From a virus: DNA of 64,000 nucleotides. Of this stretch, positions 1-42,435 are shown one piece after another. The DNA is taken from positions 266,924 to 330,923 of IMG/VR virus record IMGVR_UViG_3300036772_000425. One strand, written 5' to 3'. The number at the start of each line of letters is the position of its first letter. The first letter of the stretch is position 1. The position numbers and the translations under genes were made by a program. The notes under the pieces are model-generated. The model was not told the origin of the DNA and made no database searches. It saw only the letters and a list, made by a program, of their open reading frames with translations.

Positions 1-868
1 CGTACTTCCGGAAAGGAGGGGCAACCTTGTTCTTCTTGATCGTCATGATGACATGGATGCCGATGACGTTGCCCTTCGAATCCTTGACCTGCGTACCTGA
101 GGTCAGCTTGATGCGGATGCTGGCATGGTACGGGATCGCCTTGCCACCGGGGGTCACGTCCGGATCGCCGTGGGTGACGCCGATGGCTGTTCGAAGCTGG
201 TTCAGGCACATCAGGGTGATGTTGTTCTGGCCCACGACGCCGGTGATCTTCCGCATCCCCTTGCTGATGACGCGGGCCTGCAGGCCCACCGTGTTATCCT
301 CGTACTCACCGTTGAGTTCTGCGAGGGGCGAGGTCGCAGCGATGGAGTCCCAGATTGCAAGGACGGGTACGTCCTTGACGCCCAGGAGGTTCTTTGCCTT
401 GATGATCGTCTCCTCGAGGGCCTTGAAGACATGCTCTGTCGCATGCATGTCCATGTAGACGAAACCCTTCTTGATGTTGATCCCCATCTGACCCAGCTTC
501 TCGATGGGGGTGGCGTTCTCGGTGTCAATGTAGACGACGATGCCGCCCTCGGCCTGAGCGTTCGCTGCCGCGTGGTATGCCAGGTGGGACTTGCCGATGG
601 AGGGCGGTCCACAGATCTCAATGATCCGGCCTTCAGGGTAGCCGCCGAACGACGCGTTCCGGATGGCGTAGTTGAGTTGGATGGAACCGGTGTTGAGCCA
701 TCGCTTGACCACCGTGGGCGCCTCGGTCTCGGCCAGGTTGTAGGCCACCCGCATCCCGAATTCCTTGTTAAGATCCTTGATCAGGGCGGAGGTGAGCTCG
801 TCGATCTCATCGCCTTTCCCGACCTTCTCCTTCGCAGGCCCAACGACTTCTTTCTTACCCTTCATCAT
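1..868 (-). CDS. RecA/UvsX-family recombinase, 3' end truncated at window edge. The ORF runs off the window and is therefore absent from the ORF track.
   Basis: Minus-strand translation from ATG at 868 gives MMKGKKEV...GRIIEICGPPSIGKSHLAYH (Walker A) ...YIDTENA... GLQARVISKGMRKITG...LMCLNQLRTAIGVTHGDPDVTPGGKAIPYHASIRIKL...KKNKVAPPFRK. This is collinear with E. coli RecA motifs (GRIVEIYGPESSGKTTL / FIDAEHALD / [35 protein letters not shown] / VKNKIAAPFKQ). Confidence 0.85.
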   Translation of the reverse strand, partial: MMKGKKEVVGPAKEKVGKGDEIDELTSALIKDLNKEFGMRVAYNLAETEAPTVVKRWLNTGSIQLNYAIRNASFGGYPEGRIIEICGPPSIGKSHLAYHAAANAQAEGGIVVYIDTENATPIEKLGQMGINIKKGFVYMDMHATEHVFKALEETIIKAKNLLGVKDVPVLAIWDSIAATSPLAELNGEYEDNTVGLQARVISKGMRKITGVVGQNNITLMCLNQLRTAIGVTHGDPDVTPGGKAIPYHASIRIKLTSGTQVKDSKGNVIGIHVIMTIKKNKVAPPFRKY

Positions 869-911
869 CGAACTCCATGATCAGAAACTGACACGAGAAA
901 GACACATGAAC

Positions 912-943
912 GGGCGACATGGATCAAACAGACCCATGTCGCC
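912..943 (-). terminator. Candidate intrinsic terminator hairpin between the SSB and recombinase genes
   Basis: 10-bp inverted repeat GGGCGACATG...CATGTCGCCC with a 13-nt loop. On the minus-strand RNA it is followed by a U-rich stretch (GUUCAUGUGUCUUUCUCGUGUC). Confidence 0.35.
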
Positions 944-964
944 CAGAGGTTCAGGAGCCGGTGC

Positions 965-1873
965 TCACTCGCCCGTGTCCGAGTCGCCCATCATCTCCTT
1001 GAACGCATCGTCAAGGCTCTGCTTCGGCGTAGACTCGGATTCATCGAGATCAACCTTCTTGGTTCGCTTCACGGGAGCCTTCACGGGCTCCGATTTTGCA
1101 GGTGCCTTCAGGTCATCGGCGAGCTTGTCGAGCTCATCCTTGGGCTTCACCCCCCGTGCAGTGCCCTCGTCGTTCGTTGCTTCATCACCAGAAGCGCCGC
1201 TGGCAAGCCAGGCATTGAGCACCTGTTCGATCTCTGCAGATGACTTCTGCGGGTACATGTCATCGATGTTGGGAACGGAATCCAGCAGCTTCTTGATCTT
1301 CTCGGGATCTTCAACGAGCTTGGTCTGCTTGCGACCGAGGTCGATGACGGTGTCAAGGACCTCCTTGTTGTTGTACTTCTTGCCCGACTTCTTGATCTCC
1401 ACGATCAGGTCGATGCCCTCGAGCGGGTCCATGTAGTCGATCAGGTCGGGATTGATCTCCACGTTGGTGAAGAAGTCCAGCAAGCGCCCGTATGGGAACT
1501 TGTTGAAGCTCCAGACCTGGATACCCTTGTCTTCCTGACCACGGACCAGGATCGCTGCGTACGCCGTCATCTTGGGCTGCAGCTTCTTGGCCACCTCCCG
1601 ATCCTCAGGCAATCGTGTCGAGTACAGCTTCCTGATCAGGTCGTTGATCGGATCGGGCTTGCCGAACTGGGTCGGTGCCAGGATCCTCGGGTTGTTCCCG
1701 AGGTAGTAGAAGCGCCGTTCGATGAACGGCATCCCATCGGGGGTCGACTTCCAGGGTACCAACCGGACCGTGTACTTCCCGACCTCGGGTTTCCAGAGCT
1801 GGACGTTCGACGTCCGCCATTGTCCGTTGAGCTGCTCAACCCGCTTACGAATCGCTGCAAGATCTACTGCCAT
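965..1873 (-). CDS. gp32-like single-stranded DNA-binding protein
   Basis: 302 aa. N-terminal WKPEVGKYTVRLVPWK resembles T4 gp32 WKLKLDNAGNGQAVIRFLP. Acidic C-terminal tail (DEATNDEG...DLDESESTP...DSDTGE) is typical of gp32. Sits next to the recombinase as in T4-like replication/recombination modules. ATG start, with a purine-rich stretch (AGTAGGAAAAAGGAAAGAGGACAAC) immediately upstream. Confidence 0.75.
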   Translation of the reverse strand: MAVDLAAIRKRVEQLNGQWRTSNVQLWKPEVGKYTVRLVPWKSTPDGMPFIERRFYYLGNNPRILAPTQFGKPDPINDLIRKLYSTRLPEDREVAKKLQPKMTAYAAILVRGQEDKGIQVWSFNKFPYGRLLDFFTNVEINPDLIDYMDPLEGIDLIVEIKKSGKKYNNKEVLDTVIDLGRKQTKLVEDPEKIKKLLDSVPNIDDMYPQKSSAEIEQVLNAWLASGASGDEATNDEGTARGVKPKDELDKLADDLKAPAKSEPVKAPVKRTKKVDLDESESTPKQSLDDAFKEMMGDSDTGE

Positions 1874-2228
1874 GTTGTCCTCTTTCCTTTTTCCTACTGT
1901 GTACCAGTTTTCTGCACCGTGCAGTTGACCAGGACACTACATTCTGCTGCTTGAAAGTTCAAGCGGTGAAGAACTTCATCTTCACCGCTCGTTCAACCGT
2001 TTTTCCGCTTCTCGTCCGCCGCTTGTTGATCTGTTGCGGGTGCCATGCACCCCACGACGCCGCCTGCTCCGCTGAACTCTTCGATTCCTTGTTCCTCAGG
2101 AGGATCATCAGAAACCAGTTGGTTCGGAACCCTTGCTTGTTGAGTCTCGTTGACCGCTAACCTCAAGTACTTCATGAGCAGTTTGCTCATGGAACTAAAT
2201 AGGCTGTTCGATCCATTTGGTGAGGAGA

Positions 2229-2552
2229 TTAAGCCATCGAACAGGTGCAGTTAGCAAGGCGCGCCTTCAGTGAGTTGATCTCTGCACGGAGCTTTCCCAC
2301 GTATTCATCAGGATCCAGGATGACACCGAGAGCATCCTCGTGTTCCTCTGCACGCTTGGCGAGGACGTCTGCGGGCAAGCACGCATGGACCCCATCGACA
2401 AGATCGCAGTGAACAGAGTACTTGCACTTCGGGCACCACATCGCTTCGTAACAGGCCTTACAGATCATCCTGCCATGACCCATGCTGACGCTGGGCGAAG
2501 CTCCGCAGTCGTCGCACTGTTCATCTTCGAAATTTTCTGGGTCAAACATCAT
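2229..2552 (-). CDS. Small Cys-rich zinc-finger protein (hypothetical)
   Basis: Start chosen at internal MMFDPENFED (ATGA overlap with the upstream ORF's stop). Multiple Cys pairs: CDDCG...CKAC...CPKC...HC. Confidence 0.5.
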   Translation of the reverse strand: MMFDPENFEDEQCDDCGASPSVSMGHGRMICKACYEAMWCPKCKYSVHCDLVDGVHACLPADVLAKRAEEHEDALGVILDPDEYVGKLRAEINSLKARLANCTCSMA

Positions 2553-2788
2553 CGTCCTCCATCCCATCCTGGGTGCCCAACCATGAGTTTGGCTGCTGCA
2601 GCGAGGTACGTCGGTCGTAGCTCCTCGATGCAATCATCCCAGCTTGGGCACCCGTACTCCGAGCTGTGCGCCAGCTTCCCTGCGTGAGAAACGAGGATCG
2701 AGGCACCGCAGAAGATGCACGAAAGCCCGCAGCCGCTGATGATCTCACCCGTCTTCGTCCGGCTCCCCACGAAAGCTCTTTCGCTCAT
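2549..2788 (-). CDS. Small protein with CxxxCxxC motif (hypothetical). Possible radical-SAM-like N-terminal fragment.
   Basis: 79 aa. SGCGLSCIFCG matches the CX3CX2C spacing of radical SAM / NrdG-type activases (compare QGCPLRCLYCHN). Stop overlaps the next start (ATGA). Confidence 0.45.
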   Translation of the reverse strand: MSERAFVGSRTKTGEIISGCGLSCIFCGASILVSHAGKLAHSSEYGCPSWDDCIEELRPTYLAAAAKLMVGHPGWDGGR

Positions 2789-3405
2789 GGTTCATCAGCG
2801 CTCCAGCCGTGCCCGCCCTTCTCCATCATGGTGGAGACGTAATCGGCGGTCATCACCCCGTAGACCAACGGTGATGACTTCAGGCAGTAGGGCTTGTTCG
2901 ATTCCAGGACGAAACCATCGTTCAACTTGACGGCCAACCATTCGTCCGGATCGAGCTGGATCCTGTAGTGCTGCAGGACGAAGACGCTCCTGTCGGGAGT
3001 TGTCATGAAGGGGATGTCGTTGTTGTACGCGTACACCTCGCCCCGCTTCTCACGCTTCCATGAATCGGGTTGGTCCACGTAGAAATCGTTCTCCTTTTCC
3101 TTCCCAGGCATGCCCACCTTGCCCAGGTCGTGGAACAGAGCACCGACGATCATGCTGTCCTTGCGCAAGTTCCAGCCGTACCCCTTGTTGAGCACGAGCA
3201 GGTTCTTCAGCACCCTGAGACTGTGATCGACCAACCCACCCGGAAAAGCACCGTGGTAATCTGCCCGAGCCGATGCGGGGCACAGGCACAGGCGCTCATC
3301 GAGTTCATCGAGCATCGTGATCACAGGTTCGGTTCGGGGCCCGAGCCTGCCGCACAGTGAGCGGAATTCGTTCCAGTTCTGCTCGATCTCTTCGGGTGTC
3401 AGCAT
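2785..3405 (-). CDS. HD-domain phosphohydrolase
   Basis: 206 aa with H...HD...D signature (HSLRVL ... ALFHDLGKVGMPGKE ... D). Stop overlaps the downstream start. Confidence 0.7.
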   Translation of the reverse strand: MLTPEEIEQNWNEFRSLCGRLGPRTEPVITMLDELDERLCLCPASARADYHGAFPGGLVDHSLRVLKNLLVLNKGYGWNLRKDSMIVGALFHDLGKVGMPGKEKENDFYVDQPDSWKREKRGEVYAYNNDIPFMTTPDRSVFVLQHYRIQLDPDEWLAVKLNDGFVLESNKPYCLKSSPLVYGVMTADYVSTMMEKGGHGWSADEP

Positions 3406-3443
3406 GGCAGGATCGTAACACGATCCGACCCATCGTTCAACGT

Positions 3444-4667
3444 TCAGACATCGTCAGCTTTGAGCATGAAACGTTGGACGTACCCCTTGATCCGTAGGGA
3501 GTTGATGGCACGGATCGCCGGCACCTCATCCTTGTGAGCATCGATCAGGATCGCATCGTGCAGAAGGAATATGGGCACCGACCTGGGTGCCACCGACGTA
3601 AGTTGGTCGATCACCTGCCTGAAACCGAGCAGGGTGATGTCCACCCCCGATGACTGACCGTAGTACGCAATGAACAGGTTGTCAAGCGGTTCATCGACCA
3701 CGATGGGTCGACCATGACGGTTCATGATCTTTCCGGTCTTCAGGAACTGCGCCTTGATCCGAGCGAGGAGCTCATGCGTGCTGAAGTACCGTTTGACACG
3801 TTGGACGAACTCGTCCAGTGCTGCTCCCTCGATCCCAAGCTGCACACCCAGGGCGCGTTTGCTGCTGCCGTAGAGCTCACTGATCACAGCGCCCTTGATG
3901 GCTTTGCGTTCGTAACCCAATTCTCGAGCGATCATCTGGTACAGGTCGGGTTCATCGCAGCGGCCACCGTGTTCGTACAGCAGGATCCTAGCCTCCAGTG
4001 CCGCAAAATCCAACGAGATCACCTGACCATCGTTCCCATGCCTGGACCTCAGGATCTTCCTGTGTTCACGTTTCAGCGTCAGGATCTGCGGACCGGTCGC
4101 GACCGTCAACCGTCCGGTCAAGGTCCTGAAACGATCGTACTCGACTGCGGGCATGCGACCCAACCTGTTCGGTTCAAAGCTTCGCAGGGCGGGCATGTTG
4201 CCCTCGCCCACGTCGATCAGCTCTTTCCAGAGGTGCTTGTCCACGTACCCGGGCCTCAGGGCCCGGATGACAGCGTTGCCGGGCACCCAGACGGTGGTGT
4301 AGTAATCGAACGGCAGGGTCCCGATGGTACCACCGATCGCGGTCACCAATTTTTTGGTGAAGTCGCGGTGTTCGTTCTCGGGCAGCACGAACCGCCACGG
4401 CACGTCAGTCGAACCGAGAGAACCGCTGAAGTGTTCCATCGACCTGATGAATTGCGGCGCGGGCATCGTCGGCAGCTCGATTCCAGCAAGCCTGTAGAGA
4501 GTGTCGAGACAGAACTCACTGTCCAGCTTGATCTGCCCACTGAGATGCCAGGCTCCGTCAGGCACCGATCCGACCCAGCTGTATCCAGCCTCAGAGACAG
4601 AGAGGTGCTTCGCGGTACCCAGGATCGAAGAATCAATGCAGAACCGTTGCACGATGCATCGTAACAC
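3444..4667 (-). CDS. Family A (Pol I-like) DNA polymerase, polymerase domain only (no exonuclease domain)
   Basis: 407 aa. RFRTLTGRLTVATGPQILT matches the Pol I TATGRLSSSDPNLQNIP. SLDFAALEARIL is motif A (DYSQIELR). RKAIKGAVISELYGSS is motif B (RxxAKxxxFGxxYG). FLLHDAILID is motif C (HDE with D retained). GTG start as called by the ORF track; a later ATG start is possible. Confidence 0.75.
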   Translation of the reverse strand: MLRCIVQRFCIDSSILGTAKHLSVSEAGYSWVGSVPDGAWHLSGQIKLDSEFCLDTLYRLAGIELPTMPAPQFIRSMEHFSGSLGSTDVPWRFVLPENEHRDFTKKLVTAIGGTIGTLPFDYYTTVWVPGNAVIRALRPGYVDKHLWKELIDVGEGNMPALRSFEPNRLGRMPAVEYDRFRTLTGRLTVATGPQILTLKREHRKILRSRHGNDGQVISLDFAALEARILLYEHGGRCDEPDLYQMIARELGYERKAIKGAVISELYGSSKRALGVQLGIEGAALDEFVQRVKRYFSTHELLARIKAQFLKTGKIMNRHGRPIVVDEPLDNLFIAYYGQSSGVDITLLGFRQVIDQLTSVAPRSVPIFLLHDAILIDAHKDEVPAIRAINSLRIKGYVQRFMLKADDV

Positions 4668-4689
4668 CCGTCAACCAACAACTACACGT

Positions 4690-7611
4690 TCAAGGAGCCG
4701 GATCCTTGGGTATGCTCGGATCCAGCTGGGTGATCTGGTCGACGATGTTGGGTGCGCCCTCGAAGACACCGTAACCATCAGCGTACCCGAACTGCCAGGA
4801 TGTCTCGAACTTTCCGGGCGAGAAAGCATGCGTGTAGTTGACCACGATGTAGAGGTTGTCCAGCGTGGTACCCGTCTGGAAATCGATGAAGTACTTCTGG
4901 GCGTTGGTCGCCAGTGGGTTGCCCAGGCTTGTCATGCTGAGTTGGGCTGGGATGACCCGCAACGGTAGGCCCATGGCGCCGGCGCCGTTCGGCGCGGCGG
5001 TATTCTTGATGGTCTGCGATCGGATCATCTGGACCGTCGACAGCAGGGGTTCAGCCTTGGAGGCGAGGTTCGCGCTGGAGATGGTCGAACCGTTCGAACC
5101 GAACCTGATTGTGGGTACCAGCTGGGCAAGGGCGTTCTTCAGCTGTTGAGCATCGGTGAACTGGCTGATCTGCACGCGCCCAGAAGCCTCGTCCTCCTGG
5201 TACTGCATGAAGGCGCTGAACAAGGGGTTGTCGCTGGGGCCCTTCGGCAGCAAGGATTTCGCGTAGTCGTTGGACGGCGTCGCGATGAACCCTGAGTTGA
5301 ACGGGTTCTTGAAGAACTGAGATGCAGCCCGGTGGGTGTTGGTCTGCTTGTCGTACACATGGATCCGCATGATCTTCCGGGTTGATTTGCCCTTCGCGTC
5401 CTTGATGGACACGCTGGTATCAGTCGTGGCAGAGTACGCAAGCACCTGGAGCACGTCGTTCTGCCCTGCATCGCTCACCCTTTCATGTGAGCATTCGATG
5501 TACATCTCTACCACCGGTTTCTTAAACGGTCCGTACTGCTTGTTGTAGGAAGCCAAACGGTTCTCGAACGCCTGTTCGTTATCCTTGCCCGACTTCACCT
5601 GCGCATCCTTGCCCTTGGCGTACGGTTCGTAGTACTGCCGCAGCCCGTATCCGGGCGCCCGGTTGTCCAGGAACTGTGCGTTGATGCACAGCCCCAAGAA
5701 ATCCTCCAGAGTGATCTTGTCGCCGCCGCGCTGCTTGGCAGTGTCGGTGAACTGGTCCATGAACTGCGGTAGGTCGATCGGGAACTCAGCGATGTTCTTC
5801 GAGCTGACGGGCCCACACGATTCATTGAGGCTGTAGAAGAAAACCTGCACCTCGTCCACCGTCTCCGGGATGCTGTTCGTGGCCCTCAAGGCGAAGACGC
5901 TGAACAGCTTCCCGAACGATACGACCCGATGCAGGGCGGTGTCCACCTTGGACGCAGGAGCTGAGTTCAGGCTGTCGCAGATCTGGGCCAGCTCGTTGTC
6001 GTCGGAATCGTACGGGGTGGACTTCGCAGACGAGGGCAAGAAAGGATCGAACCCTGTCTGCACCTCCTTGAACATCTTCTGAACCTGGTTCGCAGCACGG
6101 TGATCGTACTCCTCCTTCAGGGTGTACTTGGTCTTGTCCCGTTGGTCGGGCGTGTACAGCTGCTTGAGTGAATTGATCAGCCCGGACAGTGCCGTCTTGT
6201 CGACGGTCGCGTTCTTCTCCAGGTTCTTCTTCAGGGTGTCGATGTTTGTGTTGACATCGTTCGCCTTCATCTCTGGGAAGTTGCCGGTCTCGGCGGCGTC
6301 CAGGATCTGGAAGATCCGCATCTCCTTGTTCAGGCCCTCTGGCGGGTCCAGCTTCAGGCGCTGCCGGTAGTAGGAGATCTTCTCGATCAGGGCCTTGACC
6401 TGCCGCATCCTGAACGCTGAATCATCATCGTTATCAGTCACCTTCAGGTCACGCATCTCGGCCACCCCCTTGGTGAAGAGCTCGAGGTTGACGGTGACCT
6501 GACCCATCTGGTCGAAAGAGAAGTTCGAGTTGACGATGTGGTATGCCTCCCGCATCATCATGTTGTTGTTGATGTAGTCGAAGTACGGGTTCTGACCGGC
6601 TCGGGAAGGAGCGCGCCAACCGTACGTCATCCATATGGTGACGCCGGTGTAGACCCTCGGTCGAAGCAGGTCGCTGATCTCATTGAGACGGGACCTGTCA
6701 TGTATCTTGAGTGTCAGGTTGGCCTTCTTGTAGCAGAAGTAACCAGCACCTGTCGGCACAGAGTTGATGTTGACGTGCTCAAGGGAGGCGAACGGCCGGA
6801 ACGGATCGATCACGTCGGTGTAACGATCGCCGGCGGTGCCCACCGATTGGTTCGGCAATGGATTGACCAGGGTCTGCGGTGACGTGAACGCCTCCATGCC
6901 CATGTAATCCAGCTCACCCTGCTTCGCTCCGGTGCCATCCACGATGGGCAGGCGCCTGATGTCAGCGTCCGTCATCGCCTTGTTCGCACCGTCGAACGTC
7001 GTCGTATCAGCCGCTCCCAGGAGGAACTTGAGCAGACCACCGGTCTGCAGTTGGTCGGCTGGATCCCGACTGAACTGGAATTCAACCTGCATGTAGGGCA
7101 CCAGCTGCGACAGCACGGTGCTCGGCATGTTGTTCATGAACAGCTCTCCCCGCTTCGTGTTCCGGTTCGCCGGGTTGAAGAAGGGAGAACGGGTGATGAT
7201 CACCCCCATACCGAAACCATCACGCAGCTGGTAGTCGCCGCCGATGACCTCCTGCAGGCTGCTTACGTTGTACGGAGAACCGTCAGGGTTCGTAGCGATC
7301 TGATGCTTGGGCGTGTTCGACCCCACCGACACGATCTTCTCGTTCGTCCAGATGGTGAGGTAGTTCGACAAGTCCACACCTCCGAGGTCAGGGTTCCCCT
7401 TGATCTCGTTGATCTTGTTCTCGATGTCCTGCAGGTTGTAGACGCCCCGCCCGCTGTTCTCCAGGATGCTCATGAGCAGCTTGTACGGGTTGCTGTTGTC
7501 ACCGATCTTGTCGATCGAGCCGCCCAGGCTGGTGGCGACCGAACCGTTCATGTCGCTGGGCAGGAACATCGTGGAGATCCCGTCCAGCGTGGTGAAATCG
7601 CTGTCGGCCAT
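4690..7611 (-). CDS. Large virion structural protein (putative baseplate/tail component)
   Basis: 974 aa from MADSDFTTLDG (ATG placed 2 nt after the stop of the LysM gene). N/S/T/G-rich, no enzymatic motifs. Lies within the tail morphogenesis block directly after the protein-X homologue. Confidence 0.55.
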   Translation of the reverse strand: MADSDFTTLDGISTMFLPSDMNGSVATSLGGSIDKIGDNSNPYKLLMSILENSGRGVYNLQDIENKINEIKGNPDLGGVDLSNYLTIWTNEKIVSVGSNTPKHQIATNPDGSPYNVSSLQEVIGGDYQLRDGFGMGVIITRSPFFNPANRNTKRGELFMNNMPSTVLSQLVPYMQVEFQFSRDPADQLQTGGLLKFLLGAADTTTFDGANKAMTDADIRRLPIVDGTGAKQGELDYMGMEAFTSPQTLVNPLPNQSVGTAGDRYTDVIDPFRPFASLEHVNINSVPTGAGYFCYKKANLTLKIHDRSRLNEISDLLRPRVYTGVTIWMTYGWRAPSRAGQNPYFDYINNNMMMREAYHIVNSNFSFDQMGQVTVNLELFTKGVAEMRDLKVTDNDDDSAFRMRQVKALIEKISYYRQRLKLDPPEGLNKEMRIFQILDAAETGNFPEMKANDVNTNIDTLKKNLEKNATVDKTALSGLINSLKQLYTPDQRDKTKYTLKEEYDHRAANQVQKMFKEVQTGFDPFLPSSAKSTPYDSDDNELAQICDSLNSAPASKVDTALHRVVSFGKLFSVFALRATNSIPETVDEVQVFFYSLNESCGPVSSKNIAEFPIDLPQFMDQFTDTAKQRGGDKITLEDFLGLCINAQFLDNRAPGYGLRQYYEPYAKGKDAQVKSGKDNEQAFENRLASYNKQYGPFKKPVVEMYIECSHERVSDAGQNDVLQVLAYSATTDTSVSIKDAKGKSTRKIMRIHVYDKQTNTHRAASQFFKNPFNSGFIATPSNDYAKSLLPKGPSDNPLFSAFMQYQEDEASGRVQISQFTDAQQLKNALAQLVPTIRFGSNGSTISSANLASKAEPLLSTVQMIRSQTIKNTAAPNGAGAMGLPLRVIPAQLSMTSLGNPLATNAQKYFIDFQTGTTLDNLYIVVNYTHAFSPGKFETSWQFGYADGYGVFEGAPNIVDQITQLDPSIPKDPAP

Positions 7612-7613
7612 GT

Positions 7614-7907
7614 TCAACCCACCAGGGCGGCGACCGCAGGCAAGGCCGGGATGTTGATGATGGTGCCGACGGGCACCTGCATCCCCCAACCGATGTTGCT
7701 AGCCGCCGCTAGAATCCACCAGTACCGAGCATCGCCGTAGACCACACCGGCGATGGTATCCAATCGTTCGGCACCGCGCACGATCATCTGTTTCACCGGA
7801 AGCTGTCCGTTCTTCATCGCGGATTGGACAGCTTCCCGTGCGCGAGATGAACCGAACTGCGCTCCGAAGTTGAGCACAGGAGATCGCGTGTACCGGGTGA
7901 ATGCCAT
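7614..7907 (-). CDS. LysM-like tail/baseplate protein (P2 gpX-like)
   Basis: 97 aa. ERLDTIAGVVYGDARYWWILAAASNIGWGMQVPVGTIINIP parallels P2 gpX QGDTLDAICVRYYGRTEGVVETVLAANPGLAELGAVLPHGTAVELP (LysM fold). Confidence 0.6.
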   Translation of the reverse strand: MAFTRYTRSPVLNFGAQFGSSRAREAVQSAMKNGQLPVKQMIVRGAERLDTIAGVVYGDARYWWILAAASNIGWGMQVPVGTIINIPALPAVAALVG

Positions 7908-16215: not shown

Positions 16216-17109
16216 TCACCTGGCTGAAGGCCAAAGAAAGGAGACGCCCATCGGGACGGTGATCTCCTCGCTGTGCCCGCATGATGGGCACGTCACGTCC
16301 TGCCGCATCCTGATGCCAGGTTCGTTGGCCCGGATGTAGTCGCGCAGGGCCAACGAATCCCGAGCGGGCATCCCGTTGCGGACGAAGTTGGCGATCTTGC
16401 TGCGATCATCAACGCCCTCGATCGACACGATGCTGAACAGCAGGTTGGTGGTCACGCTGGCCTCACCCTGCAGGCCCAGCTTCTTCTGCTTCTCTGTCAT
16501 GGCAAGGATCTCCTGCTCGTCGCGGCCGGACAGGAACCTGAACCCGATCACCTTCTTCGAGTACGGGAGGTTGAACTTGAACAGGTTGACGCCCTCCTGC
16601 ACGGGCTCAATCTCCAGGGTCTGCAGGGGCAGCGCGGACAGGTCGAAGCTTCGTGACGACTTGGTCGAGCATTCGTCGCAGTTGACCTCGGCCGAGTACT
16701 CGGCACCGTAGCCCGTGATCCTGATGGCGACCATCAGGGCGTTCCTGTCGCCCGTCAGCATCTCGTTCGGGTCGATCGACTTGTCGATCAGGCACGAACG
16801 GATCAGCTCGCTGATCACGGTCCCCTTCTTCAACAGGGCACGGCTCGTGAGGATGTCCTCCTCCCGGGCTGTCATCGCCCTGATCTCAACAGTCTCTCGG
16901 TTGTGGAGCGCGCTGGAACCTGGGTACACGCGGCCGCGGCTCGGCAGCGGCATCGTCTCGACCGGAATCTCCAACCCGAAGTCCTTGGTGACCTGTGCAG
17001 CCGCGGTTGTCGTCTGGATCCCGGGTGCACCGGCCTGAGCGAAAACCTGGTTGCGCTGCTCGCGTTCGTCTGCCATGTTGATCTTTCCTTGCTGGGAGCC
17101 ATTGTACAC
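16216..17109 (-). CDS. Zinc-ribbon-containing protein (hypothetical tail-module protein)
   Basis: 297 aa (possibly starting at MADEREQRN, 17076). CDEC...CPSCGH Cys pairs near the middle and C-terminus. Confidence 0.45.
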   Translation of the reverse strand: MYNGSQQGKINMADEREQRNQVFAQAGAPGIQTTTAAAQVTKDFGLEIPVETMPLPSRGRVYPGSSALHNRETVEIRAMTAREEDILTSRALLKKGTVISELIRSCLIDKSIDPNEMLTGDRNALMVAIRITGYGAEYSAEVNCDECSTKSSRSFDLSALPLQTLEIEPVQEGVNLFKFNLPYSKKVIGFRFLSGRDEQEILAMTEKQKKLGLQGEASVTTNLLFSIVSIEGVDDRSKIANFVRNGMPARDSLALRDYIRANEPGIRMRQDVTCPSCGHSEEITVPMGVSFLWPSAR

Positions 17110-20053: not shown

Positions 20054-21718
20054 ATGGCACCCGTCCCTGGGCAGGTTCTGCGCGTCGCCCAGTGCCCACT
20101 GTGCAATTTTTCATCAAAAAGGTTGACGACCTTCGGGACGCATGTGTCGGATGTCCACGGAAGTTCCGTCCAGGCAGAGTGGGATCGGTTGCACGGTGGA
20201 CCGCGGATCTGCGCCTGCGGTTGCGGCAGGGTGACCACATGGCTCGGTTGGCACGCAGGTTACTCGACCCTGCTGAGGGGCCACAACGCAAGCATCTACA
20301 CGGTGTACAGCACGGAAGAAGCGCAGCGGCTCGCTGCCACGCGTGGGATGAACTGGTCAGGCCAACCCGGGTGGTCCAAGGGCCTCACCAAGGAGACGGA
20401 TGACAGGGTCCGCATGCGTGCAGAGGCGACTGCCGTGGGCCGACAGACCGCCATCGACAGTGGTAGGATCTCCGTCTGGTCCAAGGGCCTCACCAAGGAG
20501 ACGGATCAGAGGGTCGCCGACGCAGCCGCGGCGAAGGGACGGGCACACGCGGACGGAACGTTGGTCGTCTGGTCCAACGGGCTCACCAAGGAGACCGACG
20601 TCAGGGTCGCTGCGATGGCTCGGGCCAACGCCATCACCCACCAACGGCGCGCCCTACGCGATCACCTGGACCGGATCAAGAGGTTGAGCCTCGATGAGAT
20701 CCGTGATCGGGTGGAGGGAGCAGGGAACATGGAGCTCATCGCAGCCGACGGGTACGTGAACGACCTCACCTCGGAGGTTCGGGTCAGGTGCAGGCTATGC
20801 ACGCAGGAATCCATCATCAACGCCAGGCAGGCGTTCGCGTCCAGGTGCCAGCACTGCGATCCTTTTGGGTCCGCGGCGCAGGCCGAGCTCGCCCGGACCG
20901 TCGAGGGTTGGGGGTTCCGGATCCGGCGCAACGATCGATCGACCATCCGGATGAACGGCAGCGTGGCGGAGCTGGACATCCTCATCCCGGAGCATGGGTT
21001 GGCCATCGAGTACAATGGGCTGTACTGGCACAGCAGCCTGAAAAAATCGTCAGCGTACCACCAGAACAAGTCGGACGCGTGCAAGGCGGTTGGGATCCAA
21101 CTGGTGCATGTCTTTGAGGATGAGTGGCGTGACCGGCGCACGATCGTTGAGGGCATGCTCATGCACCGCCTGGGAATGTCAACCCGGTTCGGAGCAAGGG
21201 TCTGCAGCATCGGCGCCCTGGAGCCTGGGGAACGCCGACGATTCTTCCGGCAGAACCACGTGGACGGTGACGTGCCCGCGGTGCATGCCTTGGGCCTCTA
21301 CCACCCAACCGCCGGGCTGGTGATGGCCATCAGCCTCCGGAGGCCGATCCTACGCAAGAAGCACGCCGGTTTCCTTGAGGTTGCCCGGCTGGCGACTGCG
21401 TCCGACACAGCGATCGTCGGCGGGCTGTCGAGGCTGTCGCGTGCAGCCCTGGCATGGGCACAGAATAATGGACATGCGGGCCTAATGACCTATGTTGACA
21501 CCCGGCACGGGAGCGACGGTGGGTCCTGGGTGGGCCATGGATGGGCACCCAAGGGGGAAACGCCGCCGCGATGGTGGTGGACTGACATGGAAACACGGTT
21601 CAACCGGTTCAAGTACCGGGCTGACCGTGCTCGGAACATGTCAGAGACGCAGGTCGCCGAGGAGGCGCACGTCGTGAAGATCCACGGATGCAAGAACCTG
21701 ATCCTTGAAATGATCTGA
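20054..21718 (+). mobile_element. Free-standing homing endonuclease gene: zinc finger + 3x NUMOD3-like repeats + DUF559/PD-(D/E)xK nuclease domain
   Basis: 554 aa on the plus strand inside a minus-strand block. N-terminal CPLCNF...HVSDVHG...CACGCG is the same module as the 18483..19310 HNH protein. Three repeats WSKGLTKETDDRV / WSKGLTKETDQRV / WSNGLTKETDVRV. C-terminal ELDILIPEHGLAIEYNGLYWHS...VHVFEDEW matches the DUF559 (Vsr-like) endonuclease motif. Confidence 0.8.
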
Positions 21719-22393: not shown

Positions 22394-25393
22394 TCAGGGC
22401 TGCTGCTGGTTCAGGTTGTTCGTCACGACGAAGTCCAGTGACACGAACTCGATCGTCTTCGTGGGCATCACGAAGATCTTCCCGCGGATGGTGTTGTTCT
22501 CGATGTCCTGCTGCGTCGTCGTCGAGCTGTCGATCACGACCTTAAACCGATCGAGACCGGCGAGCGCCTGGATCCTCTGCAGACCGGGCGTGACTGCTGC
22601 CGTGAACTTCGCGAGGGTGACGTCCCTGTTGGGCTCGAAGAGGATGGTGTTGGAGATGTCGCGAACCTGACGCCTGATCTCGATCAGCAACCGGCGGACG
22701 TTGACCCTGTCGAGGGCCGATGCAGCCTGCTGCAGCGTCTTCTGTCCCCAGACCACGACGCCGCCGGTGGGGTTGGTACCACCCTGCGAATTGCCCGGGA
22801 AGGCGACGAGCGGGTTGATGTTGACGTCGTACAGGACGTCCATGTTGTTCTTGGACAGCTTGACCCGGGCCTCCAGGGTCGATTGCAGGGCTCCTCGGGT
22901 GAAACCGGCCGGAGCGAACCACGGATGACCCACCTTGTCATTCAAGGCCATGGCTCCCAGGACAACGACTGACGGTGGGACGACCACGTTAGTCTGCGTC
23001 GTCGGATCCGGGATCACAACGTCCGGGAAGTAAGCTGCTCCGAAGCTGCTGTCCAGGGCCCGGCTTGCGAAGTTCTGGGCCGTCAGGGTGACGCTCGGCA
23101 GCTGGTCATCGCTGGTCACCAGTTCACCGTTGTTGTCAAGCTGCTCTACGTCCATGATGTAGAGAGCATCGAACCTATCCTGCACCGCTGAGATGGCGGC
23201 ATCGGTGACCACTGGGTTCCGAGCGCCAGGAATGGCAAGGAGCTGCAGGTCGGTGTTCGTGGTCTCACCCATGATCTGCAGGGCCTTGGCGTAGGCCTGG
23301 ACCGTGGGTCCGTTGTTGGATCCACGGTTCGGATCGGACATGTCTCCCTCGACGGCTGCGTTGGTGAGCTGCGATTCATCCATGTCAAAGATGTTGATCC
23401 CATCCGAACCGCCCTGGACGAAGAAGCTCCACTTCAGGAAACGCCTGTTGGCCTGGATGAAGTCGTCTGGGATGACGGCCCGCGTTTTGTTGGCATCGTT
23501 TGCCACGATGCCGCCGGCGCGGACATAGGTTGCGTTGACCCACTGGTTGGAGTCAGCCACACCGGTAGAGCCGGTGATGACCTGGACGTTCATCAGGCTG
23601 AAGAAATCTCGGTTGAAGAGATCGTTGTCGATCGCTCCGTTCGCCACCGTGCTCGGGGTCCCGGTGTTGTCAGTGGACAGGAAGTCCTGCACATCAACCC
23701 GGTGGTTCGGGAAGTACTGCACGGTCGCGTTCATCGAAAGGTTGGGCAGAACGGACAGGTTCGGTGTGGCCAAGCTGGCCACGTGTTCGTACTGAACGCC
23801 CCAGTACAGGAGCGGGTTGACCTGCAACGTGGCTCCTGAACCCTGCGTCAGGTTCTGCCGGAACGGAACGGGCGGTTGCTTGACACGGGTCCATGCTGAT
23901 GAATCGATGACGGTGGCTGCCGTGGGCGCCACCAACGGAGCTGTGCCCGCCGTCATCAGGTGGTTCGCTCCACGCATGCCGACCGGCATGGCGCTCGGGT
24001 CTGCCTCGCCGGTGTCCACGCTGGAATCCATCTCGACCCGGATCAGGTTCGACTGGTTCAGGTAGTTGCCGTCCACCGCGATCTTCTGGGCTGTCAGGCC
24101 CCTGTCGAAGTCGAAGTACGAGTGTTGGTCGCCCACCACCTTGGCGATGTACCGATCATCGCTTGGGTTCAGGCTGAGCCCACGCCACTGTTCCAGGTAG
24201 ACGGGACTTGCGTCGTTGTCAGTCCAAGATCGAACGACCAGGTCGAATGACGGGTATGGGTCGTTGGAATCTGTCGAGATCGCAATGTTCTCGATGGCCA
24301 ACTTGTACAGCGTTGACACACCGGAACCGTCATCGAGGGCGTGCACCCTGAACAGGTTCTGAGCGCGGCCGCCGAAAGGTTGGCTGACAACCCAGGGTGA
24401 AAGAGCGTGGGTGAAACGATCCTGGAAATCCTCGAAATCCGGTGCCGTTGAGGTGCCGGAATCCCGAGCCTGAGACCCGGTGAGCAGGAATGCATCGTGC
24501 TCAAGGACCTGACCCACCATGGAACTGGTGAGGACTCCGATGCCCGTCACTACAGCGGTGGCTGGGTGGATGTCCCATGATGCGTAGACGAAGTGACCGG
24601 CCTGCTGAAGCTTGGTCTGATCGGTGTTGAGAACGTTTGCGAAGTAGTTCGGCGACGTCATGTCGAACGATGCCGTGATCACGTTCGGGTACAGCGGATC
24701 GGTGCCCTTGTGACCGTTGAGAAGCATGACAAAGTCCTGCTTGGCAACGCTCGATTGGAGAAGAACCGTTGAACCGACGGAAGCTCCGTTCCCGTTGCTG
24801 GCGACAGCGTTCGACCCGGGTCGAACGCTGGGAGCGACGGACGAGGACAGGGAGATGATGACGCCTGATGGAGCCATCACAACCCCCCGGAGGATGGGCT
24901 GTGCCGCAGAGCCTGACTGCAGGCCCGCCGAGCTGAAGACGGTTGACCCAGCTGACTCTGACATGAGGCAACCGAGGAAGTACGTCCGACCGAGCGGGCC
25001 GCCCAAGTTCGCGTACGGGTTGGAGCTCAGGATGCCTTCGTTGTCGGGATCCGGCTGCTTCTCACCCACCACGAAACCAGAGGTTCCGACGATGCCGGTC
25101 TGGGTGTTGCGCTGCTTCCCGTCTCCGGCACCCAGGATCCTGAGGTAGGTCAGGGCCTGAGCGTTCCGCAACCATTCACTGACCGCCAGCGGCCCGAACT
25201 TCTGGCCGTCGGACGGCCCGAACTTGGCGTTGAAGTCAGACTGCAATCCGACCGTGATCGGAACGTAAGCCGGACCCTTCACCGCGGTGCCGATGACACC
25301 GGCTGGGACGCCCGTCGGTTGCTGAGCAACCGGGCCCGAGAGATCGATCTCCTGAGCTGTGACCCCCGCTGCACCGAACTTCAACTGTGCCAT
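22394..25393 (-). CDS. Tail sheath protein, copy 1 (gp18-like, 999 aa)
   Basis: C-terminus NRVNVRRLLIEIRRQ...IEFVSLDFVVTN parallels gp18 DRINVRRLFNMLK...INYITLNFVATA. N-terminus TGVPAGVIGTAVKGPAYVPITVG. Preceded by GATAGTTAGGAACGAGGCAGGACAGGC-ATG. Confidence 0.85.
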   Translation of the reverse strand: MAQLKFGAAGVTAQEIDLSGPVAQQPTGVPAGVIGTAVKGPAYVPITVGLQSDFNAKFGPSDGQKFGPLAVSEWLRNAQALTYLRILGAGDGKQRNTQTGIVGTSGFVVGEKQPDPDNEGILSSNPYANLGGPLGRTYFLGCLMSESAGSTVFSSAGLQSGSAAQPILRGVVMAPSGVIISLSSSVAPSVRPGSNAVASNGNGASVGSTVLLQSSVAKQDFVMLLNGHKGTDPLYPNVITASFDMTSPNYFANVLNTDQTKLQQAGHFVYASWDIHPATAVVTGIGVLTSSMVGQVLEHDAFLLTGSQARDSGTSTAPDFEDFQDRFTHALSPWVVSQPFGGRAQNLFRVHALDDGSGVSTLYKLAIENIAISTDSNDPYPSFDLVVRSWTDNDASPVYLEQWRGLSLNPSDDRYIAKVVGDQHSYFDFDRGLTAQKIAVDGNYLNQSNLIRVEMDSSVDTGEADPSAMPVGMRGANHLMTAGTAPLVAPTAATVIDSSAWTRVKQPPVPFRQNLTQGSGATLQVNPLLYWGVQYEHVASLATPNLSVLPNLSMNATVQYFPNHRVDVQDFLSTDNTGTPSTVANGAIDNDLFNRDFFSLMNVQVITGSTGVADSNQWVNATYVRAGGIVANDANKTRAVIPDDFIQANRRFLKWSFFVQGGSDGINIFDMDESQLTNAAVEGDMSDPNRGSNNGPTVQAYAKALQIMGETTNTDLQLLAIPGARNPVVTDAAISAVQDRFDALYIMDVEQLDNNGELVTSDDQLPSVTLTAQNFASRALDSSFGAAYFPDVVIPDPTTQTNVVVPPSVVVLGAMALNDKVGHPWFAPAGFTRGALQSTLEARVKLSKNNMDVLYDVNINPLVAFPGNSQGGTNPTGGVVVWGQKTLQQAASALDRVNVRRLLIEIRRQVRDISNTILFEPNRDVTLAKFTAAVTPGLQRIQALAGLDRFKVVIDSSTTTQQDIENNTIRGKIFVMPTKTIEFVSLDFVVTNNLNQQQP

Positions 25394-41706: not shown

Positions 41707-42435
41707 TCAATCTAACGCCAGTTCTCTCTGTGATTTCTTCAGACGCTTTAGCGTTGAGTACGACACTCCGTGTTCCTTCATCAGGTCCACCAACGGTGTG
41801 TTGACGATCGCTTGTAATAGTTCTGAGCTCGGTTCGAACTTCGTGGAAGCTGAAATCTTCGATCGTGTCTCTGTTGAAGGTTGACGACGATGTGAACATG
41901 CATCAGAACATGTTGTCCGAACATGGTACCTCCTGTTCTGAGAGAACTCAACCTTGAAAGAGGTGCCGCAATGGCACGTTCGAACCTCGACAACCTCATC
42001 CTTCGCACCCAACCGACGCTCATGAGCGATGGGCCAGCATTTCCGGAGCTTGTCTCGGGTTTCAGGTCCTAGAACCCGACCGACGCAGTGGGTGTTACCC
42101 TTCAGAGCTTCGGAGAGTGTTTGACGGGCTGCATCTGTCATTCCTCTTCCGCACGGATCAATGTTGTAACCCTTGTTTGAGTTCATGGAATCCAGCTCGG
42201 AGATCCAGAACCTTTCTCGATCATCAATCGTTGAGTCTGAGCACTCTTCAATGATTTCGAAAATGAAGTTCTCAACACCGTGCTTTCGCATTGAACGATA
42301 AAGAGGATATTCCACTCTCGTGTCTTTCGACGCGTAAAGATGACCCGCCTTACGTTGAGCGAAGTTGTAGGTCTGCCCTACGTAAACTTTACCATTCACC
42401 TGATTGGTGATCTTGTAGATGTACCGCATGAACAA
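41707..42435 (-). mobile_element. GIY-YIG homing endonuclease (Seg/I-TevI-like), free-standing
   Basis: 242 aa. YIYKITNQVNGKVYVGQTYNFAQRKAGH...NKGYN is a GIY-YIG catalytic module. C-terminal DNA-binding region. Located directly next to the tmRNA gene. Confidence 0.8.

What the first reader, a model, noticed from the sequence alone, without database searches (positions are those of the whole stretch)
3444..4667. Standalone family-A DNA polymerase palm/fingers/thumb domain in a T4-like replication module (no 3'-5' exonuclease, no family-B polymerase seen in window)
The 407-aa protein contains the Pol I pre-motif A TGRL..TGP segment, motif A (DFAALEARIL), motif B (RKAIKGAVISELYG) and motif C (LHDA, the E changed to A). 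It begins at the thumb region with no exonuclease or N-terminal domains. It sits between a baseplate-like structural gene and an HD hydrolase, not in a canonical replisome cluster. It could be a split replicative polymerase (exonuclease encoded elsewhere), a translesion or primer-extension enzyme, or a reverse-transcriptase-like accessory polymerase.
Basis: partly seen in the sequence, partly recalled or inferred. Interest (0 to 1): 0.65.

Follow-up and report, generated by a model that had tools for sequence, protein, structure and literature searches.

The report
Compact second DNA polymerase in jumbo phage
The gene is real and encodes a stripped-down Pol I-type DNA polymerase with no proofreading part. 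It heads the replication gene block of a 340-kb T4-like phage, but the same genome also carries a full-size bacterial-type replicase, so it is a second polymerase of a kind first described in 2024.

Summary
The ORF at 3444-4667 (-) is real: 402-407 aa, conserved full-length in over 500 clusters at 50% identity, all from metagenomes. It is a genuine, divergent family-A polymerase. The catalytic and substrate-contact residues are invariant in 135/135 family members compared. The AF2 model (pLDDT 93.7) matches Klenow and KlenTaq. There is no exonuclease: the first ~65 aa form a small beta/alpha domain with no significant fold match.

First, the gene is the first of a strictly syntenic replication array: PolA-HD-SSB-RecA/UvsX-dUTPase-FEN-DnaB-RNR. 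Second, it is not the genome's only polymerase. A Logan contig 100% identical to the window carries a DnaE-type Pol III alpha 32.7 kb downstream on the same strand; that gene is divided by a split intein. The two genes share a contig in 11 cases.

The closest known thing is divPolA1 (Yutin et al. 2024). It holds the same position and is also a compact extra PolA beside a regular polymerase. Sequence similarity to it is marginal, and this family lacks the vestigial exonuclease domain.

Best mechanism (inferred): an active, non-proofreading gap-filling polymerase that works with the separately encoded flap nuclease as a split Pol I. Novelty: a new variant of a known kind.

The parts
3444..4667 (-). 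Compact family-A DNA polymerase gene. 407 aa from GTG 4667; more likely 402 aa from the in-frame GTG at 4652.
   Evidence: ORF. Homology. Family of ~400-aa proteins. Start codon.
4473..4667 (-). N-terminal mini-domain (aa 1-65): three or four short strands plus a helix. It is not a recognisable exonuclease.
4110..4118 (-). TGR of the pre-motif-A segment. R186 corresponds to Klenow R668, which contacts the primer terminus.
   Evidence: Translation. R is present in 135/135. Alignment to Klenow.
3987..4010 (-). Motif A, DFAALEAR. D220 is the catalytic Asp (Klenow D705); E225 is the steric gate (E710).
   Evidence: D and E are each present in 135/135.
3867..3908 (-). Motif B, RKAIKGAVISELYG. R254, K258 and Y266 correspond to Klenow R754, K758 and Y766. 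Position B3 (F762) is Ile.
   Evidence: K is 135/135. B3 is I 77, L 52, M 4, and never aromatic. B3 is a known variable position (PMC10201439).
3540..3563 (-). Motif C, LHDAILID. D371 is the catalytic Asp (D882). The following Glu (E883) is replaced by Ala. D376 is conserved.
   Evidence: D371 is 135/135. Position 372 is A 111, G 10, N 4, S 3, D 3, C 3, and never E.
2785..3405 (-). HD/HDIG-type metal-dependent phosphohydrolase (206 aa), the conserved immediate downstream neighbour.
   Evidence: Pfam HD E 6e-6. PHROG 28876. TIGR00277 HDIG. Present next to the polymerase in 55 of 57 sources. No PDB relative by sequence.
2229..2788 (-). Two small Cys-rich ORFs (79 aa at 2549-2788, 106 aa at 2229-2549) between HD and SSB. 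Function unknown.
   Evidence: Logan gene calls. No Pfam or PHROG hit for 2229-2633.
965..1873 (-). gp32-type single-strand DNA-binding protein (302 aa).
   Evidence: Pfam gp32 E 2.8e-7. PHROG 1192. Found downstream in 49/49 loci that reach that far.
1..868 (-). First 289 codons of the RecA/UvsX recombinase (410 aa in the full contig). The array continues off the window: dUTPase, 5'-3' flap nuclease, DnaB, class II RNR.
   Evidence: Cluster c2. L160 gene table with Pfam RecA_N, 5_3_exonuc and DnaB_C. L160 is 100% identical to window 1-7873.
4690..7689 (-). 999-aa protein, the last gene of the tail/baseplate run, ending 22 nt before the polymerase gene. This is context, not part of the replication unit.
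   Evidence: Conserved neighbour c4. No family hit.

Best explanation
The gene encodes a catalytically active, template-dependent, dNTP-specific DNA polymerase. It is reduced to the family-A palm, fingers and a short thumb, plus a small N-terminal domain, and it has no proofreading. It is not the phage's main replicase: the same genome encodes a full-size DnaE-type Pol III alpha with a PHP domain, assembled by a split intein.

The compact enzyme is expressed as the first gene of the replication/recombination array (HD hydrolase, gp32 SSB, UvsX/RecA, dUTPase, flap nuclease, DnaB, RNR). Most likely it does the short-patch synthesis that Pol I does in bacteria. That means filling gaps while the separately encoded 5'-3' flap nuclease removes RNA primers on the lagging strand, and extending 3' ends in recombination intermediates. 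In effect it would be a Pol I split into two genes, working beside a bacterial-type DnaE/DnaB/DnaG replisome.

Shown here: identity, intact active site, absence of an exonuclease, synteny, and co-occurrence with DnaE. Inferred: activity, and the gap-filling role with the flap nuclease.
For: Fold and motifs.

Conserved residues: D705, E710, R668, K758, Q849 and D882 equivalents are invariant in 135/135 sequences that diverge past 50% identity; R754 is 133/135 and Y766 is Y or F in 134/135. This is the pattern of an enzyme under selection for catalysis and for minor-groove checking. The E883-to-Ala change is compatible with activity: mutating E883 in Klenow lowers kcat 26-fold (PMC3241644).

Short thumb: only two ~20-residue helices at aa 97-136.

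Synteny downstream of the gene: HD 55/57; SSB 49/49, RecA 41/41, FEN 31/31, DnaB 30/30. The FEN carries Pfam 5_3_exonuc_N and 5_3_exonuc, the N-terminal domain of bacterial Pol I.

A regular replicase in the same genome: the DnaE N-part P0454 lies on the 340,433-bp source contig. It also lies on Logan contig SRR11832861_66505, 32.7 kb downstream of the polymerase gene. That contig is 100% identical to the window over 7,873 nt. Eleven exact contig-length matches link the two gene families.

Related phages keep a compact PolA plus FEN at this position while their regular polymerase varies: family A in immuto, family B in Mel-JY01, and A, B or C in the literature (PMC11348598). This fits a role that does not depend on which replicase is used.
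Against: There is no biochemical evidence for any member of the family, or for divPolA1. The pairing with the flap nuclease rests on synteny and on the analogy with bacterial Pol I; the two genes are four to five genes apart, not adjacent. Yutin et al. read the same conserved context as a hint that the compact PolA, rather than the regular polymerase, may be the replication enzyme. The conserved HD neighbour has no place in the Pol I model. The motif C Glu-to-Ala change and the non-aromatic B3 residue could mean altered chemistry or substrate rather than simply a slower enzyme. The short thumb was read from the model's secondary structure and was not measured by superposition.
Confidence: 0.5

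Rival explanations
1. The compact PolA is the conserved core replicative polymerase, working with DnaB, primase and SSB. The swappable 'regular' polymerase (here DnaE) is the accessory or repair enzyme. Alternatively, the two share the fork: one takes each strand, or the PolA extends primers before hand-off.
For: It is the gene that stays fixed at the head of the replication array across clades whose regular polymerase is A, B or C (PMC11348598). The catalytic residues are strictly conserved. The DnaE lies 33-35 kb away among RNA-repair, methylase and sugar-metabolism genes rather than replication genes. Two-polymerase forks are known from established knowledge (PolC/DnaE in Bacillus).
Against: There is no proofreading in cis, and no DnaQ-like gene in the array. 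That is hard to reconcile with copying 340 kb accurately. The short thumb predicts low processivity, and no clamp-binding feature or processivity partner was identified. The DnaE is full-size (PHP, NTPase, fingers, HHH) and is conserved at 49-89% identity across the clade, as expected of a replicase.
Confidence: 0.2
2. It is a repair, lesion-bypass or recombination-dedicated polymerase (like Pol theta or Pol nu, which also lack proofreading). It would extend D-loops made by UvsX/RecA or fill resected ends made by the Mre11/Rad50 pair.
For: It is a PolA without an exonuclease, as are Pol nu and Pol theta, which appear among the PDB profile matches. RecA/UvsX lies three to five genes downstream, and gp46/47-type Rad50 and Mre11 are in the window. 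T4-type phages depend on recombination-dependent replication (established knowledge; PMC7824862).
Against: None of the insertions typical of Pol theta or Pol nu are present. The residues that check the minor groove (R668 and Q849 equivalents) are invariant, which argues against a loose active site. This reading overlaps with the main explanation and cannot be separated from it by sequence.
Confidence: 0.15
3. Polymerase and HD hydrolase form a pair that controls which nucleotides enter phage DNA, by analogy with DpoZ and DatZ of Z-genome phages. The HD enzyme would remove a canonical dNTP and the polymerase would accept a modified one.
For: HD is the immediate neighbour in 55/57 sources. The B3 position of motif B and the motif C Glu both differ from standard PolA. 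Nucleotide-metabolism genes (ThyX, Tmk, MazG-like, dUTPases) lie downstream.
Against: The HD protein has no sequence match to any solved structure. I believe DatZ structures are deposited, which would make them part of that negative result, but I did not check. It looks like an HDIG-type enzyme of unassigned specificity. No Pfam match suggesting a base-modification pathway turned up among the ORFs scanned in the window or in the stretches downstream. The related divPolA1 loci lack the HD gene. DpoZ enzymes keep a proofreading domain (PMC10201439).
Confidence: 0.07
4. It is an inactive polymerase relic kept as a DNA-binding or scaffolding subunit, or an artefact such as a fragment of a longer frameshifted gene.
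For: The motif C Glu is lost. The window protein scores below the Pfam threshold.
Against: Both metal-binding Asp residues and all triphosphate and primer contacts are invariant in 135/135. The length is constant across more than 500 clusters. The upstream gene has its own stop codon 22 nt away. The only read-through case (L032) is an isolated contig.
Confidence: 0.03

Closest known systems
divPolA1 (Yutin et al. 2024, Virol J 21:200, PMC11348598): a divergent PolA of Flavobacterium phage immuto and relatives
   Same: It holds the same genomic position. It lies immediately after the tail/baseplate genes and heads the array SSB-RecA-5'-3' exonuclease-DnaB-RNR. The size is similar (408-452 aa). 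The palm residues are kept and no active exonuclease is present. Motif C reads [HY]DA, not HDE. It is always accompanied by a regular polymerase elsewhere in the genome. The host phages are related (major capsid protein 45-46% identical). Mel-JY01's protein links the two groups: it scores 57 bits on this family's profile, has no Pfam PolA hit, and matches immuto gp001 at E 6e-17.
   Different: Sequence similarity is marginal. The family profile scores 12.6 bits on immuto gp001 and 28 bits on LR756508, against 40.7 bits on a canonical PolA and 41 bits on Klenow. divPolA1 keeps a whole but inactivated exonuclease domain; this family has only a ~65-aa N-terminal domain. divPolA1 has His in place of the steric-gate Glu (DYDAFHLR), whereas this family keeps the Glu. 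The HD neighbour is specific to this family. The genomes here are 325-370 kb rather than 155-190 kb.
Bacterial DNA polymerase I (Klenow, KlenTaq, Bst large fragment)
   Same: It gives the best sequence and fold matches. Motifs A, B, 6 and C align, and the residues for dNTP selection and minor-groove checking are the same. Taq and Bst Pol I also lack proofreading activity (established knowledge; PMC10201439 reference list).
   Different: There is no 5'-nuclease domain (it is a separate gene) and no vestigial exonuclease domain. The thumb is short. E883 is replaced by Ala and F762 by Ile or Leu. The protein is about 400 aa, against 540-600 aa for the large fragments.
T7-like phage PolA with exonuclease and polymerase split into two genes (Czernecki et al. 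2023, PMC10201439)
   Same: A PolA polymerase domain encoded without its proofreading domain.
   Different: In the T7-like case the exonuclease gene is described as arising from a recent splitting event and the enzyme is the sole replicase. Here no exonuclease gene is adjacent: the upstream gene is a 999-aa structural protein and the downstream gene is the HD hydrolase. A separate DnaE replicase also exists.
divPolA2 of barbaviruses (same 2024 paper)
   Same: An extra, divergent, exonuclease-less PolA beside a regular polymerase.
   Different: divPolA2 sits in variable neighbourhoods, lacks a PolA-type thumb and also resembles RNA polymerases. This family sits in a fixed replication context and keeps the dNTP steric gate.

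Membership tests
Family A DNA polymerase (PolA) | Motif A with the catalytic Asp and the steric-gate Glu (DxxxxExR) | tested here: met
   DFAALEAR at 3987-4010. It aligns with Klenow DYSQIELR. D and E are each present in 135/135.
Family A DNA polymerase (PolA) | Motif B (RxxxKxxx[FY]xxxYG) on the O helix | tested here: met
   RKAIKGAVISELYG. R is 133/135, K is 135/135, Y or F is 134/135. Position B3 is Ile, Leu or Met; a non-aromatic Leu at B3 is reported for some PolA subfamilies (PMC10201439).
Family A DNA polymerase (PolA) | Motif C (HDE) with the second catalytic Asp | tested here: inconclusive
   H is 128/135 and D is 135/135, but the Glu is never present (Ala in 111/135). The Asp that binds metal is met; the full HDE triad is not.
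Family A DNA polymerase (PolA) | Score above the curated Pfam DNA_pol_A threshold | tested here: inconclusive
   The window protein scores 22.6 bits against a 34.3 cut-off. Family members P0269 and P0200 score 57.1 and 39.1 bits. The family profile matches Klenow at E 1e-9.
Family A DNA polymerase (PolA) | Right-hand palm, fingers and thumb fold of Pol I | tested here: met
   The AF2 model has pLDDT 93.7. The top 50 Foldseek hits in the PDB are all Pol I-type polymerase structures (Klenow, KlenTaq, Bst and variants), E down to 4e-14, TM 0.45-0.60. BFVD hits are phage PolAs.
divPolA1 (Yutin et al. 2024) | Encoded in addition to a regular DNA polymerase in the same genome | tested here: met
   A DnaE-type Pol III alpha lies on the same contig as the window's gene. 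Eleven exact contig-length matches link the two families.
divPolA1 (Yutin et al. 2024) | Conserved array of replication genes immediately downstream | tested here: met
   SSB 49/49, RecA 41/41, FEN 31/31, DnaB 30/30. The order is the same as in immuto, LR756508 and Mel-JY01.
divPolA1 (Yutin et al. 2024) | Inactivated but structurally present 3'-5' exonuclease domain | tested here: not met
divPolA1 (Yutin et al. 2024) | Truncated thumb | tested here: inconclusive
   The model shows two ~20-residue helices (97-117, 120-136) where I recall Pol I having a long helical hairpin with a tip. No residue-level superposition was available.
divPolA1 (Yutin et al. 2024) | Significant sequence similarity to divPolA1 proteins, greater than to canonical PolA | tested here: inconclusive
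   Profile scores are Mel-JY01 57 bits, LR756508 28 bits and immuto gp001 12.6 bits, against canonical immuto gp199 40.7 bits and Klenow 41 bits. hhalign to gp001 gives E 0.017.
Split exonuclease/polymerase PolA (T7-like) | A separate 3'-5' exonuclease gene next to the polymerase gene | tested here: not met
   The neighbours are a 999-aa structural protein and an HD hydrolase. No exonuclease family was found within about 30 kb downstream in a relative. The only DEDD protein seen is an Orn-type oligoribonuclease about 40 kb away.
DpoZ/DatZ-type polymerase-hydrolase pair | A DatZ-like HD dATPase and a base-modification pathway in the same locus | tested here: not met
   The HD protein matches no PDB sequence. 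None of the Pfam matches among the ORFs scanned suggests a base-modification pathway. Not every small ORF was scanned.

The most novel reading that the evidence does not exclude
The compact, proofreading-less PolA is the ancestral, vertically inherited replicative polymerase of the whole Far-T4-like lineage, up to 370-kb jumbo phages. It would work at the fork with DnaB and gp32. The interchangeable 'regular' polymerases (A, B, or here an intein-split DnaE) would be later add-ons that supply fidelity or act on the second strand. That would make this a two-polymerase phage replisome of a new type, built around the smallest known PolA.
Probability: 0.17. Interest if true: 0.75.

Novelty: new variant of a known kind. 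Interest (0 to 1): 0.45.

Why it matters
A conserved second DNA polymerase beside a regular replicase was reported in 2024 for 14 phages of 155-190 kb, with no function assigned. This window shows that the arrangement extends to 325-370-kb jumbo phages. It also shows that a very large protein family is involved: more than 500 clusters at 50% identity, with none found in the deposited phage genomes or GTDB species-representative genomes searched.

The family now has a defined partner set: an intein-split DnaE, DnaB, a flap nuclease and an HD hydrolase. That turns 'which polymerase copies these genomes, and what is the other one for?' into an experiment that can be run on culturable relatives.

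At about 400 aa, with every PolA catalytic residue except the motif C glutamate, the enzyme is also a natural minimal Pol I. That could interest enzyme engineers.

Tried and rejected
1. RM378 as a precedent for a polymerase-only PolA. I recalled this from memory, but the literature describes a split family-B enzyme there, so I dropped it.
2. Close relatives in deposited phage genomes. tblastn of the window protein and of a distant family member found only canonical PolAs at 22-30% identity.
3. Presence in bacterial genomes or prophages. None was found in the GTDB representatives.
4. A single-protein scan of IMG/VR for the source contig found nothing. The alignment-based scan then gave 53 loci.
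5. Searches for the regular polymerase using immuto's PolA and Mel-JY01's PolB. Both returned only their own clades, with no contig-length match.
6. Walking with an exact DNA pattern at a storage-chunk edge returned the same chunk. Walking by protein succeeded.
7. A polymerase-HD fusion in L032. It is a read-through of three genes in one 8-kb contig and no other; I treat it as an indel or a one-off.
9. Sigma-70 promoters and terminators around the gene do not exceed shuffled expectation.
10. The HD protein could not be assigned to a subfamily.
Full report
THE OBSERVATION

The minus-strand ORF at 3444-4667 is present (407 aa from a GTG start).

On its own the protein is a weak Pfam match: DNA_pol_A at E 6e-5 and 22.6 bits, below the 34.3-bit cut-off. 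Other evidence is firm:
- PHROG_17 'DNA polymerase' gives E 1e-13.
- A profile of 84 homologues matches the Klenow fragment in the PDB at E 1e-9. The alignment runs through the TGRL segment and motifs A, B, 6 and C.
- An AlphaFold2 model built on that alignment is confident (mean pLDDT 93.7, pTM 0.90).
- The model's best Foldseek matches are Klenow, KlenTaq and Bst polymerase (E down to 4e-14, TM 0.55-0.60).
- Against predicted viral structures it hits only full-length phage PolAs at 9-18% identity.

The ORF is not a fragment. The upstream 999-aa gene ends with its own TGA 22 nt before it, and homologues have the same length.

The start is probably the in-frame GTG at 4652 (402 aa). This matches the MxRFCID beginning of the homologues and the gene call on an identical Logan contig. 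The JGI call of 373 aa removes conserved residues.

THE FAMILY

A word-indexed search found 242 relatives, the top 120 at 47-66% identity. All are about 400 aa, none is named, and they sit on contigs of up to 359 kb. The window's own contig is 340,433 bp.

An exhaustive profile search of 1.84 billion cluster representatives found 509 representatives at E <= 1e-30 and 2,585 at E <= 1e-3. Nearly all of the best 150 are about 400 aa and align end to end; a few are shorter, truncated calls.

Across 134 of these representatives plus the window protein, the following are invariant in 135/135: the Klenow equivalents of R668, D705, E710, K758, Q849 and D882. R754 is 133/135, and Y766 is Y or F in 134/135. 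The residue after the motif C Asp is Ala (111), Gly, Asn, Ser, Asp or Cys, and never Glu. Motif B position B3 (F762) is Ile, Leu or Met, and never aromatic.

Mutating E883 in Klenow lowers kcat 26-fold rather than abolishing activity (PMC3241644). A non-aromatic Leu at B3 is reported for some PolA subfamilies (PMC10201439). The invariant steric-gate Glu points to dNTP use. This is the conservation pattern of a working DNA polymerase.

NO EXONUCLEASE

The thumb region has just two ~20-residue helices. I read this as a short thumb, but I could not superpose structures.

CONTEXT

The window is the morphogenesis block of a distant T4-like myovirus:
- gp23-type capsid protein, 45817-47745
- gp20 portal, 53285-55375
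- large terminase, 55777-57411
- prohead protease, 51759-52424
- two sheath-like proteins, 22394-25393 and 25659-28667
- baseplate hub, 16216-17109
- Rad50- and Mre11-like proteins, 58132-60885 and 61058-61711
- primase, 61704-62777

The polymerase gene follows the last tail/baseplate gene on the same strand. In 57 sources (the window, three ENA/Logan loci and 53 IMG/VR loci) the order is: tape-measure-like protein, three further tail or baseplate genes, compact PolA, HD, SSB, RecA/UvsX, dUTPase, 5'-3' flap nuclease, DnaB, class II RNR. HD follows in 55/57 sources. Where enough sequence is held, SSB follows in 49/49, RecA in 41/41, the flap nuclease in 31/31 and DnaB in 30/30.

A Logan contig (SRR11832861_66505, 168,718 bp) is 100% identical to window 1-7873. 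It shows that this very phage continues with RecA (410 aa), dUTPase, the flap nuclease (327 aa), DnaB (475 aa) and RNR.

THE LITERATURE

The capsid protein's nearest deposited relatives are an uncultured 484-kb phage (LR756508), Flavobacterium phage immuto, Microcystis phage Mel-JY01 and RM378.

Immuto's genome starts with a 441-aa 'DNA polymerase family A', followed by SSB, RecA, 5'-3' exonuclease, DnaB and RNR. It also carries a second, full-length PolA with an exonuclease domain 38 kb on.

Yutin et al. 2024 (PMC11348598) named the short protein divPolA1. It occurs in 14 phages of 155-190 kb, always beside a 'regular' polymerase of family A, B or C. Its palm residues are kept, its thumb is truncated and its exonuclease domain is inactivated. 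The authors infer involvement in replication from the conserved downstream genes.

LR756508 and Mel-JY01 carry homologues of it at the same position. Mel-JY01 has a family-B polymerase with a clamp loader 23 kb downstream.

IS THE WINDOW'S PROTEIN A divPolA1?

By position and general architecture, yes. By sequence, only marginally. The family profile scores 57 bits on Mel-JY01's protein, which itself has no Pfam PolA hit. It scores 28 bits on LR756508's protein and 12.6 bits on immuto gp001. Against a canonical phage PolA it scores 40.7 bits, and against Klenow 41 bits. hhalign to gp001 gives E 0.017, though it aligns motifs A and C correctly.

Both groups have [HY]DA instead of HDE in motif C. 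They differ in two ways. divPolA1 keeps a whole dead exonuclease domain and replaces the steric-gate Glu with His. This family has only the mini-domain and keeps the Glu. I therefore file it as a sister variant of divPolA1, linked through Mel-JY01, and not as a proven member.

THE OTHER POLYMERASE

No polymerase or exonuclease lies in the window. The same holds for about 30 kb downstream in a 369-kb IMG/VR relative whose compact PolA is 51% identical. That stretch holds ThyX, thymidylate kinase, methylases, PNK-phosphatase and RNA ligase.

One more step along that contig found a 1,269-aa DnaE-type Pol III alpha (PHP, NTPase, fingers, HHH) 35 kb downstream on the same strand.

One of them is 340,433 bp, the window's source (P0454, which JGI names 'DNA polymerase-3 subunit alpha').

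P0454 also lies on the Logan contig that is identical to the window, 32.7 kb downstream of the compact PolA. So this genome has a regular, family-C replicase.

In this phage the DnaE is divided by a split intein. The 937-aa N-part ends in an 89-aa segment beginning CLTGDTRV. The 460-aa C-part begins with about 40 aa ending LLVHN followed by Cys. Between them lie 2.76 kb holding three ORFs, one a zinc-finger plus Vsr/DUF559-like endonuclease.

MECHANISM

Shown:
- an intact PolA active site under strong constraint
- no proofreading domain
- a fixed place at the head of the replication and recombination genes
- a separately encoded Pol I-type 5' nuclease in the same array
- a full-size DnaE elsewhere in the genome

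Inferred: the phage runs a bacterial-style division of labour. DnaE, DnaB and a DnaG-like primase would do bulk synthesis. The compact PolA plus the flap nuclease would together do what bacterial Pol I does: primer removal and gap filling, and probably extension of recombination intermediates made by UvsX.

The fact that related phages keep the compact PolA and the flap nuclease while swapping the regular polymerase among families A, B and C fits a role that does not depend on the replicase. I put this at about 0.5.

The main rival, hinted at by Yutin et al., is that the compact PolA is itself a fork polymerase (0.2). The lack of proofreading for a 340-kb genome and the short thumb argue against it being the only one. 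A dedicated repair or bypass role (0.15) and a nucleotide-selecting pair with the HD enzyme (0.07) remain open. An inactive relic or an artefact is very unlikely (0.03).

VERDICT

The context and the 'no other polymerase' implication are corrected. The thing belongs to a kind described in 2024, as a distinct, much larger and more reduced variant in jumbo phages. Interest is moderate.

Noticed in passing
Outside the window, same genome: L159:10001-12814 and L159:15573-16955 (Logan SRR11832861_66505, about 28-33 kb beyond window position 1): The phage's DnaE-type Pol III alpha is broken into a 937-aa N-part and a 460-aa C-part by a split intein. The N-intein begins CLTGDTRV; the C-intein ends LLVHN followed by Cys. 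Between the two parts lie 2.76 kb holding three ORFs, including a C2H2 zinc-finger plus Vsr/DUF559-like endonuclease. The replicase would have to be made by protein trans-splicing. Relatives carry an uninterrupted gene (L150) or intein-containing versions (Hint or intein Pfam hits on P0455, P0477, P0478).
   Followed up: partly
L159:19270-19836: A 188-aa Orn/REXO2-type DEDDh oligoribonuclease homologue (PDB oligoribonucleases at E 3e-12) lies about 3 kb after the DnaE C-part. It is the only DEDD exonuclease seen near either polymerase. Whether it has anything to do with proofreading is unknown.
   Followed up: partly
window 22394-25393 and 25659-28667 (-): Two adjacent genes of about 1,000 aa each carry tail-sheath domains near the C-terminus and cluster together as paralogues. 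Sheath proteins this long, and duplicated, seem unusual to me.
   Followed up: no
window 20054-21718 (+) and 41707-42435 (-): Mobile endonuclease genes sit inside the structural block: a 554-aa HNH/homing endonuclease on the opposite strand, and a GIY-YIG plus NUMOD3 (Seg-like) endonuclease.
   Followed up: no
L032:1962-4109 (IMGVR_UViG_3300016474_001138): In one 8-kb contig the polymerase, the HD hydrolase and the next small ORF are read as a single 715-aa ORF with no stop codons between them. No other locus shows this. It is probably an indel or assembly error, but a real fusion would link the polymerase and HD functionally.
   Followed up: partly
window 2229-2788 (-): Two small Cys-rich ORFs (79 and 106 aa, several CxxC pairs) lie between the HD gene and the SSB gene. 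No family match was found. This interval varies among relatives.
   Followed up: no
window 3444-4667 (-), gene start: The source's own gene call (P0001, 373 aa) starts 34 codons too late and cuts off the conserved N-terminal residues (C10, G17, T18, W31). This may be why the protein carries no Pfam label in that annotation.
   Followed up: yes
L138 and L141 (IMGVR_UViG_3300005529_000001, 10-30 kb downstream of the polymerase): The stretch between the replication array and DnaE holds an RNA-repair set (PNK-phosphatase, RNA ligase, RlaP-type nucleotidyltransferase). It also holds ThyX, thymidylate kinase, a MazG-like dUTPase_2 protein, an MT-A70 methyltransferase and two N6/N4 DNA methyltransferases. 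Mel-JY01 shows the same RNA ligase then polymerase order.
   Followed up: no
window 45817-47745 (-): The gp23-type major capsid protein is 642 aa. The Pfam Gp23 match's best stretch covers only residues 364-632, so the N-terminal half may be a large extension or an unmatched part.
   Followed up: no
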